Virus genome (UHGV): UHGV-0305646
Source of the DNA: a virus
Length of the DNA: 9,024 bases
Direction: 5' to 3' (one strand)
In this document: piece after piece, positions 1,580 through 1,931 of the stretch
How positions within the stretch are numbered: position 1 is the stretch's first letter
Layout: every line of letters begins with the position of its first letter
Program-made: the position numbers and the translations under genes
The notes under the pieces: model-generated
Told to the model about the DNA's origin: nothing
The model's database searches: none
What the model saw: the letters and a program-made list of their open reading frames with translations, nothing else

Positions 1580-1762
1580 TTAATCCTTTTGTTTGGCAGA
1601 CATGAGATCTTCTGCTGCATCTTTAGAGTAGTTATCAATCAGATAACCTAAAATCTCTGTCCATGTAATTGTTTTTCCTAGTTTTACACTGGCATTTATA
1701 GCCAGTCGTTCTAGTTTCATTTTTCTTTCTTCCGTCACGTTATAAGTCGTGCGCTTTGCCAT
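1580..1762 (-). CDS. Small (60-aa) putative DNA-binding regulator, divergent from the Rep gene (same position as a CTX-type RstR repressor)
   Basis: Complete ORF MAKRTTYNVTEERKMKLERLAINASVKLGKTITWTEILGYLIDNY...; small, basic N-terminus, helix-rich. Function is inferred from size, composition and position only. Confidence 0.4.
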   Translation of the reverse strand: MAKRTTYNVTEERKMKLERLAINASVKLGKTITWTEILGYLIDNYSKDAAEDLMSAKQKD

Positions 1763-1809
1763 TTTTTACGCTCGTTCAATGCAATATTTGAAGTGAGTAT
1801 ACATGCTCA

Positions 1810-1888
1810 TGAACTCACATCATCCAATCCTCTTGAACTCACTAGCTCACTGGTGTAATGTTAAAACACTAATGAACTACTGAACTCA
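1810..1888. promoter_or_regulatory. Cluster of four TGAACT(C/A) direct repeats in the divergent intergenic region upstream of the Rep gene (candidate operator or origin iterons)
   Basis: TGAACTCAC at 1810-1818 and 1834-1842, TGAACTAC at 1873-1880, TGAACTCA at 1881-1888. Confidence 0.4.
1833..1861 (+). promoter_or_regulatory. Candidate sigma70 promoter for the Rep/structural operon
   Basis: TTGAAC (1833-1838), 17-bp spacer, TAATGT (1856-1861). The -35 overlaps repeat 2, and repeats 3 and 4 lie in the predicted leader. Confidence 0.3.
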
Positions 1889-1931
1889 TGTGTTAGTAAG
1901 TCGTCATTTTTGTAATTTTGAGGATTTATTC

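What the first reader, a model, noticed from the sequence alone, without database searches (positions are those of the whole stretch)
1580..1931. Divergent regulator and iteron-containing control region upstream of the Rep gene
A 60-aa basic protein is transcribed away from Rep, and the 169-bp divergent region contains four TGAACT(C/A) direct repeats (1810, 1834, 1873, 1881) overlapping a candidate promoter (TTGAAC-17-TAATGT). This is the layout of a repressor/operator switch (as with RstR in CTX-type phages) or of Rep-binding iterons at a plus-strand origin. Either would control the lysogeny versus production state of a prophage that lacks an integrase.
Basis: partly seen in the sequence, partly recalled or inferred. 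Interest (0 to 1): 0.5.

Follow-up and report, generated by a model that had tools for sequence, protein, structure and literature searches.

The report
Small repressor and operators controlling phage Rep
The repeats are real and are most likely the binding sites of a small, previously unannotated ribbon-helix-helix repressor that shuts off the replication gene of a filamentous (UPΦ-type) prophage of enterobacteria; the true replication origin lies just outside the flagged region, so this is a useful but fairly ordinary new annotation.

Summary
A 60-aa ORF (1580-1762, minus strand) diverges from gene II/Rep (GTG at 1932). The 169-bp spacer carries TGAACTCA three times plus TGAACTA.

The window is a UPΦ-type inovirus prophage, in tandem at a dif site. 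The ORF is the published "h3", of unknown function.

- Phages with an 86-88% identical Rep but a different, 148-150-aa HTH regulator (YpfΦ, Klebsiella, an E. coli CUS-like prophage) lack the boxes.
- Phages whose Reps align to the window Rep over only 39-264 residues at 27-39% identity, but which carry an h3 homologue (57-86% identical), keep them in the same layout. One plasmid homologue also has a box pair.
- Remoter homologues with other N-terminal strand residues have other 8-bp tandem boxes.

An Ff/IKe-like plus-strand origin core (nick hairpin plus inverted repeat) lies at 1534-1579. Its inverted repeat changes with the Rep lineage.

Verdict: a repressor/operator immunity cassette, not Rep iterons. 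No binding or repression has been tested. It is a new variant of a known kind, of modest interest.

The parts
1580..1762 (-). h3 gene: 60-aa predicted ribbon-helix-helix regulator (WP_001335098; phrog_2503, unknown function).
1796..1801 (-). Candidate -10 of the h3 promoter (TATACT on the minus strand). No convincing -35 was found.
   Evidence: The position keeps a TAnnnT hexamer on the minus strand in diverged relatives: TATACT, TATAAT, TAGAAT, TAAGAT. This is inference; the consensus scan did not call it.
1802..1817 (+). Operator O1: two tandem 8-bp boxes, CATGCTCA and TGAACTCA. The core box is 1810-1817.
   Evidence: tCATGA(AC/GT)TCA is conserved 24-25 bp before O2 in all 10 loci compared.
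1833..1838 (+). -35 hexamer (TTGAAC) of the Rep (gene II) promoter, embedded in O2.
   Evidence: Invariant in the 10 loci, always 17 nt before a TAnnnT hexamer.
1834..1849 (+). Operator O2: TGAACTCA and CTAGCTCA. This is a degenerate form of the 16-bp palindrome TGAACTCATGAGTTCA seen in relatives.
   Evidence: ccTCTTGAACTCAt.ag.TCA is the best conserved island of the spacer. A perfect palindrome is present in L015 and a near-perfect one in L012.
1856..1861 (+). -10 hexamer (TAATGT) of the Rep promoter, preceded by a conserved TG.
   Evidence: Relatives have TAATGT, TAAGGT, TTATAT, TATTAT, TAGTAT or TATCTT at the same distance. The consensus scan did not call it.
1873..1896 (+). Operator O3: three tandem 8-bp boxes, TGAACTAC, TGAACTCA and TGTGTTAG. 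It lies about +5 to +28 from the inferred transcription start.
   Evidence: Two or three tandem boxes occur at the same place in relatives, for example ATGAACTA TTGAGTTC ATGAGTTC in L015. The blastn cassette boundary with those phages ends at 1894.
1920..1924 (+). Shine-Dalgarno sequence (GAGGA) of gene II.
   Evidence: Read directly from the sequence, 7 nt before GTG 1932.
1932..2984 (+). Gene II: rolling-circle replication initiator, the regulated target.
   Evidence: Phage_CRI E 4.6e-71 and G2P_X_C E 1.9e-29. TIGR01629 E 9.4e-77.
1534..1562 (+). Candidate plus-strand origin nick hairpin: stem ACGTGCAGT/ACTGCACGT, loop GTAGGTAAT. The inferred nick is near T1549/A1550, by analogy with Ff TTT^AATA.
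   Evidence: DNA fold -15.8 kcal/mol, z -5.7. Conserved in YpfΦ, Klebsiella and E. coli relatives. Same architecture as the annotated IKe and M13 origins.
1564..1579 (+). Candidate Rep-binding inverted repeat of the origin core: GTACCA ttcg TGGTAC.
   Evidence: Becomes GTCTCA ttcc TGAGAC in phages whose Rep is 86-88% identical, and other palindromes in more distant Rep lineages. Parallels GTTCCAaacTGGAAC in M13 and GTTGCAttttGCAAC in IKe.

Best explanation
The region is a portable immunity and regulation cassette of a UPΦ-type filamentous prophage.

The 60-aa h3 product is proposed to be a ribbon-helix-helix (RHH) protein. As dimers it is proposed to read 8-bp quasi-palindromic boxes, TGA(AC/GT)TCA, with its N-terminal strand (K3-R4-T5-T6-Y7-N8-V9-T10).

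The boxes stand head to tail in 8-bp register and form three operators:
- O1 (1802-1817) lies next to the h3 promoter.
- O2 (1834-1849) covers the -35 and spacer of the gene II promoter.
- O3 (1873-1896) lies just after its -10.

Occupied operators would block RNA polymerase at the Rep promoter. Without Rep there is no nicking at the origin (1534-1579), so no rolling-circle replication. Expression of the downstream phage genes would also be low. O1 would make the repressor self-limiting.

The cassette would also give immunity to superinfection by phages with the same cassette, but not to YpfΦ/CUS-type phages, which carry an HTH cassette.

Shown here: the sequence anatomy, the predicted fold, the co-occurrence and covariation of protein and boxes, and the fixed position of the boxes relative to conserved promoter hexamers. 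Inferred: binding itself, repression rather than activation, autoregulation and immunity.
For: 1. Double dissociation. YpfΦ (L006), a K. spallanzanii prophage (L008) and an E. coli prophage (L027) have Rep 86-88% identical to the window's. The MAG contig L009 has 86%. All carry a 148-150-aa HTH regulator and an unrelated spacer without the box.

Conversely, L012, L013, L015, L020 and L021 have h3 homologues 59-86% identical. Their Reps align to the window Rep over only 39-264 residues at 27-39% identity. They still carry the box 3-4 times in the spacer and nowhere else in the 4.7-6.3 kb fetched for each. L017, L018 and L028, whose Rep was cut or not compared, show the same boxes.

2. blastn of the window against those phages matches only about 1598-1894, which is h3 plus operators, and the att region. 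The cassette therefore moves as a unit.

3. Fixed layout in 10 loci. O1 lies 24-25 bp before O2. O2 contains TTGAAC, followed by 17 nt and TAnnnT. O3 follows.

5. Covariation of strand residues with box sequence:
- K-R-x-T-Y-N-(V/I)-T goes with TGA(AC/GT)TCA. This includes a plasmid homologue (L024) and a 57% identical metagenomic one (L028).
- RRTTMSIS goes with TGAATACA, three copies.
- GDTSVRVN goes with GCATGC, five copies.
- KRTTVSIT goes with TGTGCAnT, two copies.
In each of these loci adjacent boxes stand 8 bp apart.

6. A separate origin core that tracks Rep exists at 1534-1579.
Against: - There is no experimental binding, footprint or expression data.
- Neither promoter passes a simple sigma-70 consensus scan, and no -35 is evident for the h3 promoter.
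- In the window most boxes are direct repeats, whereas relatives show palindromic pairs.
- The UPΦ paper reports that lysogens release virions, so repression is at most partial.
- The covariation rests on single loci for each of the three alternative box types.
Confidence: 0.75

Rival explanations
1. The TGAACTCA repeats are Rep-binding iterons, and the divergent region is the plus-strand origin.
For: Rolling-circle and theta replicons often have repeats next to rep. The M13 gene II protein binds repeats containing TGGAAC/GTTCCA, which superficially resemble TGAAC.
Against: - The boxes are absent from three phage lineages with 86-88% identical Rep.
- They are present next to Reps that barely align with the window's, including a Rep_trans-type Rep with a related box in L023.
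- A hairpin plus inverted repeat with Ff/IKe origin architecture lies at 1534-1579. Its inverted repeat changes with the Rep lineage.
Confidence: 0.04
2. h3 binds the boxes but acts mainly as an origin accessory or enhancer factor. It would resemble the RHH relaxosome proteins TraY and TraM, or stand in for the IHF-bound domain B of the Ff origin. It might also be an activator of gene II rather than a repressor.
For: - The h3 gene and boxes occupy the position, between origin core and gene II, where Ff has the replication enhancer.
- Lysogens still release virions.
Against: - The boxes lie 230-330 bp from the hairpin, with a whole gene in between.
- O2 lies on the -35 and spacer and O3 after the -10. 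These are repressor positions.
- In other temperate inoviruses this position is held by repressors such as RstR and, presumably, YPO2273.
- A plasmid homologue has boxes without any such origin nearby.
Confidence: 0.1
3. h3 is an RHH antitoxin, or a ParG-like centromere binder, serving the variable cargo genes next to it. The repeats would be its autoregulatory or centromere site, unrelated to Rep control.
For: - In a 7.9-kb circular Salmonella form, a Doc-family toxin gene follows h3 on the same strand.
Against: - The downstream gene differs between copies: a membrane protein here, Doc, nucleases or nothing elsewhere. h3 itself is kept, in 221 of 229 UPΦ phages.
- The origin hairpin separates h3 from the cargo.
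- h3 has almost no tail beyond helix 2 that could bind a toxin.
- No ParA partner is present in the phage.
- The boxes overlap the Rep promoter in every relative.
Confidence: 0.05
4. The repeats are chance or promoter-intrinsic sequence (TTGAAC-like -35 elements), or sites for a host factor such as RovA/SlyA. They would have no specific tie to h3.
For: - The whole-window excess is only marginal.
- RovA is reported to bind the gene II promoter region of YpfΦ.
- One more TGAGTTCA lies at 8380.
Against: - The clustering is significant.
- The boxes are conserved islands in spacers that are otherwise diverged.
- They are missing from the YpfΦ spacer, which is the one RovA is said to bind.
- The box sequence changes with the strand residues of the h3 homologue.
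Confidence: 0.05

Closest known systems
RstR with ig-2 operators of CTXφ, and the predicted YPO2273 module of YpfΦ/CUS-1
   Same: A small regulator gene is transcribed away from the rolling-circle initiator gene. The spacer carries the rep promoter. The origin lies on the far side of the regulator gene. The cassette is exchangeable between otherwise similar dif-integrating inoviruses, giving heteroimmune types. YPO2273 occupies exactly this slot next to an 87% identical Rep.
   Different: RstR and YPO2273 are HTH (Xre-type) proteins of about 110-150 aa. h3 has 60 aa, no HTH and a predicted RHH fold. Its operators are tandem 8-bp boxes. No LexA or RovA input was looked for or seen here.
CopG (RepA) of the rolling-circle plasmid pMV158
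   Same: It is a 45-aa RHH repressor. Its N-terminal strand, K-R-L-T-I-T, aligns in register with h3's K-R-T-T-Y-N. It binds a pseudo-symmetric element over the -35 of the promoter that drives the rolling-circle initiator gene, and it controls copy number. These CopG properties are stated from my own knowledge of the literature.
   Different: CopG is co-transcribed with repB rather than divergent. Sequence similarity is not significant (hhalign probability 6%). CopG belongs to a plasmid, not a phage.
MetJ met-boxes, and Arc/Mnt of phage P22
   Different: There is no sequence relationship. MetJ needs the co-repressor S-adenosylmethionine. Arc and Mnt control lytic functions of a tailed phage.
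Plus-strand origin of Ff (M13/f1) and IKe
   Same: In both, a nick hairpin is followed after 2-3 nt by an inverted repeat of 5-6 bp arms, upstream of gene II on the viral strand. The loop shares TAATA with Ff and IKe.
   Different: The stem and inverted-repeat sequences differ. In UPΦ a gene on the other strand (h3) and its operators take the place of the AT-rich enhancer domain B. Nicking has not been shown.
UPΦ901 'h3' ORF (Shapiro and Putonti 2020)
   Same: It is the same gene in the same phage group. UPΦ901 has IKe/I2-2-like structural genes, YpfΦ-like genes II and V, and tandem dif integration. h3 was found in 221 of 229 UPΦ genomes.
   Different: The paper lists h3 as an ORF of unknown function. 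Term searches of its main text found 'repressor', 'promoter' and 'origin of replication' not at all, and 'regulator' once, concerning CTXφ.

Membership tests
Ribbon-helix-helix (MetJ/Arc/CopG) superfamily | Fold: a short N-terminal strand followed by two helices joined by a tight turn. | tested here: met
Ribbon-helix-helix (MetJ/Arc/CopG) superfamily | Significant sequence match to a curated RHH family. | tested here: not met
   No Pfam or NCBIfam hit for h3. The best match among 45 homologues is ParG at E 0.055, below threshold. The PDB profile search found nothing. hhalign against CopG gives 6% probability.
Ribbon-helix-helix (MetJ/Arc/CopG) superfamily | G-x-S/T/N turn before helix 2, and alternating polar residues on the strand. 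| tested here: met
   G29-K30-T31 precedes helix 2. K3, R4, T6, Y7, N8, V9 and T10 are invariant in the close family. Read from the alignment.
Ribbon-helix-helix (MetJ/Arc/CopG) superfamily | Obligate dimer whose paired strands enter the major groove. | not testable with these tools
   Only single chains of window or database sequences can be modelled, so no dimer or DNA complex could be built.
Inovirus immunity repressor/operator module (RstR type) | Regulator gene divergent from rep, with the rep promoter in the spacer. | tested here: met
   Gene layout. Conserved -35 and -10 positions in 10 loci.
Inovirus immunity repressor/operator module (RstR type) | Homology to RstR or other Xre-type HTH repressors. 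| tested here: not met
   h3 has no HTH family hit, while YPO2273 in the same slot hits many HTH repressor PHROGs.
Inovirus immunity repressor/operator module (RstR type) | Operators specific to the regulator, exchanged together with it. | tested here: met
   Double dissociation and cassette boundaries. Covariation of strand residues with box sequence.
Inovirus immunity repressor/operator module (RstR type) | Repression of rep transcription and superinfection immunity. | not testable with these tools
   This needs reporter, deletion and infection experiments.
Rep iterons or plus-strand origin at 1763-1931 | The repeats co-occur and co-vary with the initiator protein. | tested here: not met
   The boxes are absent next to 86-88% identical Reps and present next to Reps that barely align.
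Ff/IKe-type plus-strand origin core (for 1534-1579) | Nick hairpin immediately followed by an inverted repeat, upstream of gene II on the viral strand, with the repeat specific to the Rep lineage. | tested here: met
   Folds. Side-by-side comparison with the annotated IKe origin and with M13. The inverted-repeat type follows the Rep lineage.
Ff/IKe-type plus-strand origin core (for 1534-1579) | Rep nicks within the hairpin loop, and the fragment supports Rep-dependent replication. | not testable with these tools
   This needs a biochemical or plasmid replication assay.

The most novel reading that the evidence does not exclude
The h3 family could be a compact, exchangeable 'address code'. A few strand residues would set which 8-bp box is read. 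Four pairings were seen here: T-Y-N with TGA(AC/GT)TCA, T-M-S with TGAATACA, T-V-S with TGTGCAnT, and S-V-R with GCATGC. Inoviruses and plasmids would swap these cassettes to create new immunity groups.

In addition, the protein might be bifunctional. It could repress the Rep promoter and also, like relaxosome RHH proteins, shape the adjacent origin for Rep nicking. One 60-aa protein would then couple transcription of the initiator to origin firing.
Probability: 0.12. Interest if true: 0.6.

Novelty: new variant of a known kind. Interest (0 to 1): 0.4.

Why it matters
UPΦ-type inoviruses occur in about 1% of complete E. coli genomes (55 of 5426). The published survey also found them in Salmonella, Klebsiella, Citrobacter and Yersinia. 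Nothing was known about how they are kept quiet.

Assigning h3 as the repressor, and naming its operators, the Rep promoter and the origin, gives concrete handles. The phage could be induced or cured. Its immunity groups could be predicted, for instance against YpfΦ/CUS phages that share its Rep module. Origin-plus-Rep vectors could be built.

The family-wide pairing of strand residues with box sequence is a small natural data set on RHH DNA recognition. None of this overturns current ideas. It is the expected kind of switch, built from a different fold.

Tried and rejected
- Sequence searches for a known family for h3 found nothing significant: Pfam, NCBIfam and a PDB profile search.
- A search for the Ff/IKe nick sequence TTTAATAGTGGACTC with up to 3 mismatches found nothing in the window. 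The origin was found instead by its hairpin-plus-repeat architecture and its conservation.
- The sigma-70 and terminator consensus scan called no promoter in 1450-2000.
- An Rfam gathering scan of the whole window gave no match.
- No deposited phage genome carries the cassette (blastn). Whole-window megablast against phages hit only a short gene IV segment of IKe and the PEar phages.
- The search for related loci with the 45-sequence alignment failed because no stretch was conserved enough.
- I considered and rejected three ideas. A LexA box in the spacer: none seen by eye, not formally scanned. An anti-Shine-Dalgarno pairing of AATCCTC (1826-1832) with GAGGATT (1920-1926): the upstream arm lies before the inferred transcription start and belongs to the conserved CCTCTTGAAC motif. 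A convincing -35 for the h3 promoter: none found at 16-19 nt spacing.
- Two paper look-ups failed on term length.

Full report
**What the window is**

The ORFs and Pfam hits give the gene order of an Ff/IKe-like inovirus:
- gene II, 1932-2984 (Phage_CRI and G2P_X_C)
- gene V, 2996-3313
- gene VIII, 3517-3759
- gene III (G3P pilus-binding domain)
- gene VI
- gene I (Zot), 5425-6519
- a gene IV secretin, to 7792

The canonical E. coli dif sequence GGTGCGCATAATGTATATTATGTTAAAT lies at 8561-8588. An imperfect copy lies at 109-140. Bases 1-120 repeat 8452-8571, so the window starts inside a preceding tandem copy.

Near-identical elements occur in 46 complete E. coli genomes and as a 7938-bp circular record in Salmonella.

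The literature identifies this as a UPΦ virus. UPΦ viruses have IKe/I2-2-like structural genes, genes II and V more than 85% identical to YpfΦ, tandem dif integration, and three reverse-oriented ORFs, h3 to h5. The one next to gene II, h3, was found in 221 of 229 genomes and has no known function. Term searches of that paper's main text found 'repressor', 'promoter' and 'origin of replication' not at all.

**Checking the observation**

Every stated feature is present at the stated coordinates.
- The ORF at 1580-1762 (minus strand) encodes 60 aa with pI 9.0.
- The spacer 1763-1931 is 169 bp.
- TGAACTCA occurs at 1810, 1834 and 1881, and TGAACTA at 1873.
- TTGAAC (1833-1838), 17 nt and TAATGT (1856-1861) follow the pattern described.

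The whole-window count is only marginally above shuffles. Four copies within 80 bp never arose in 5000 simulations, and any 8-mer three times in 169 nt arose in 0.5% of them. The repeats extend to 16-nt units 24 bp apart.

**Which protein do the boxes belong to?**

A scan of one genome per species with the Rep protein returned Y. pestis YpfΦ (L006, L007), a K. spallanzanii prophage (L008) and a MAG contig (L009). Their Reps are 86-87% identical to the window's.

In these loci the divergent gene is a 148-150-aa HTH protein. In YpfΦ this is YPO2273, called RstR-like in the YpfΦ review. The spacer is unrelated and has no TGAACTCA or TGAGTTCA. An E. coli prophage (L027) shows the same arrangement.

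Conversely, look-ups of h3 homologues 59-86% identical found them in Providencia, in Enterobacteriaceae genomes and in metagenomic inoviruses. Their Reps have 366-381 aa and align to the window Rep over only 39-264 residues at 27-39% identity. These spacers carry the 8-mer, in either orientation, three or four times. It occurs nowhere else in the 4.7-6.3 kb fetched around each gene.

blastn of the window against these phages matches only about 1598-1894 plus the att region. Against YpfΦ it matches only 1511-1590, 1933-3320, 83-204 and 8169-8274.

The regulator gene and the boxes therefore travel together as a cassette, independent of Rep.

**Anatomy of the control region**

A gap-free comparison anchored on TTGAACTCA shows three conserved islands in otherwise diverged spacers.
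- O1 is tCATGA(AC/GT)TCA, 24-25 bp upstream of O2.
- O2 is ccTCTTGAACTCAt.ag.TCA. In relatives it is the 16-bp palindrome TGAACTCATGAGTTCA, or close to it. In the window it is the degenerate TGAACTCACTAGCTCA.
- A gTGTAnnnT element lies 17 nt after TTGAAC, which fits a -10.

Further downstream every locus has two or three boxes in 8-bp register. In the window these are TGAACTAC, TGAACTCA and TGTGTTAG at 1873-1896.

On the other strand, a TAnnnT hexamer is kept just beside O1: TATACT here, and TATAAT, TAGAAT or TAAGAT in relatives. This fits a -10 for h3, although I found no convincing -35.

The simple consensus scan called neither promoter. The promoter assignments rest on conservation and are inferences.

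**What the protein is**

No curated family matches h3. It belongs to phrog_2503, of unknown function.

A profile search of 1.8 billion representatives found 63 relatives. With a 45-sequence alignment, AlphaFold2 gives pLDDT 93.6: an extended N-terminus, helix 11-28, a turn at G29-K30-T31, and helix 34-59.

Foldseek found nothing. Pfam hits to ParG and VapB are sub-threshold. hhalign against CopG is in register but not significant. Fold membership is therefore supported by structure only.

**Covariation**

Homologues that keep the strand K-R-x-T-Y-N-(V/I)-T keep the box. This includes a plasmid copy upstream of an IncFII RepA-like gene (L024, with TGAGTTCATTAGCTCA) and a 57% identical metagenomic copy (L028).

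Three remoter homologues with other strand residues have other boxes, confined to their spacers:
- RRTTMSIS with TGAATACA/TGTATTCA, three copies (L023)
- GDTSVRVN with GCATGC, five copies (L025)
- KRTTVSIT with TGTGCAnT, two copies (L029)

In each of these loci adjacent boxes stand 8 bp apart. This is what reading by an RHH strand predicts. The 8-bp register recalls MetJ met-boxes. Each alternative type rests on a single locus.

**Where the origin is**

Just 3' of the h3 stop codon there is a strong hairpin at 1534-1562, with stem ACGTGCAGT/ACTGCACGT and loop GTAGGTAAT. It is followed by the inverted repeat GTACCAttcgTGGTAC at 1564-1579. The DNA fold has a z score of -5.7.

M13 and IKe have the same architecture at their origins (the IKe stem-loops are annotated as the viral-strand origin), and the loop shares TAATA.

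YpfΦ-type phages keep the hairpin but have GTCTCAttccTGAGAC, a palindrome-preserving change that goes with their 86-88% Rep. The other Rep lineages have a GTTCTGTGACA-loop hairpin followed by their own palindromes.

I therefore place the Rep recognition site here, not in the divergent spacer.

**Mechanism proposed**

h3 dimers occupy O1 to O3. O2 and O3 occlude the gene II promoter, and O1 limits h3 itself. Low Rep keeps the dif-integrated tandem prophage from firing its origin. The cassette sets the immunity type.

Steps shown by computation: anatomy, fold, co-inheritance and covariation. Steps inferred: binding, the sign of regulation, autoregulation and immunity. Virion release from lysogens means that any repression is leaky or conditional.

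**Verdict**

The repressor/operator reading is well supported, and the iteron/origin reading is rejected in favour of a nearby true origin candidate.

The switch is of a known kind: RstR in CTXφ, presumably YPO2273 in YpfΦ, and CopG in rolling-circle plasmids. Here it is built from an unannotated RHH family. It is a useful annotation of a widespread enterobacterial prophage, of moderate interest.

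Noticed in passing
window 1534-1579: A candidate plus-strand origin core (nick hairpin plus inverted repeat) lies immediately 3' of the h3 stop codon. The same hairpin could also terminate h3 transcription on the minus strand, since it is followed there by CTTTATTG.
   Followed up: yes
L026 (E. coli E1, NZ_CP104503.1), aligned to window 1545-1560: In a copy whose Rep gene is truncated, the origin hairpin loop carries a 12-nt insertion that duplicates GTAATACTGCAC. It starts at the position where the nick is predicted. This may be a scar of aberrant initiation or termination.
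   Followed up: partly
window 1-140 and 8452-8588: The window begins inside a previous tandem phage copy. The junction at 109-140 is an imperfect dif (GGTGCGCATAATGTAGGACTCGTTATGTTGAAAA), and a perfect E. coli dif lies at 8561-8588.
   Followed up: partly
window 8589-9024: The right flank is not typical of the E. coli chromosome. An ORF starting at GTG 8731 runs off the window end. It is 98-100% identical in DNA to 'site-specific integrase / tyrosine recombinase' genes of large conjugative plasmids of Salmonella, Klebsiella and E. coli. Some of those plasmid matches start at 8550-8558 and so include the dif-like site. The phage may sit at a dif-like site of another mobile element.
   Followed up: no
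window 218-1491 (minus strand): There is a variable cargo slot between attL and the origin. Here it holds a 77-aa ORF, a 'mobilome CxxCx(11)CxxC' protein (421-1002, TIGR04402) and a 140-aa membrane protein (1069-1491, phrog_4174). Other copies carry a Doc-family toxin, a PD-(D/E)XK nuclease or an STM4504-family protein instead.
   Followed up: partly
window 7788-7836: A very stable hairpin (-20 kcal/mol, z -7.7) lies directly after the gene IV stop codon. This is the position of the packaging signal and terminator hairpin in Ff and IKe.
   Followed up: partly
window 8169-8274: This non-coding stretch between ORFs h1 and h2 is 86% identical to YpfΦ, although the flanking genes are not. It folds into a long hairpin at 8172-8216 (z -3.7). 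It is a candidate minus-strand origin.
   Followed up: partly
window 8377-8395: TTGAGTTCAATGAGTTT lies inside the 77-aa ORF h2. It is one exact box plus a second box-like unit at 9-bp spacing, the only other exact box in the window. It may be chance or a fourth, distant operator.
   Followed up: no
window about 4420-4520 (gene III): The linker of the attachment protein contains a run of GGGES repeats. The UPΦ paper reports that the copy number of this repeat varies between isolates.
   Followed up: no
L024 2365-2380 and 2501-2692: An h3 homologue with the same strand residues sits on a conjugative-plasmid-like contig (VirB3, TrbC and ParA genes) upstream of an IncFII RepA-like gene. A TGAGTTCATTAGCTCA box pair lies 120 bp before it. 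The family is therefore not confined to inoviruses.
   Followed up: partly
L008 636-680 and 863-907: The K. spallanzanii prophage carries the origin hairpin plus inverted repeat twice, about 230 bp apart, around a masked stretch. This suggests a local duplication within or next to its regulator gene.
   Followed up: no
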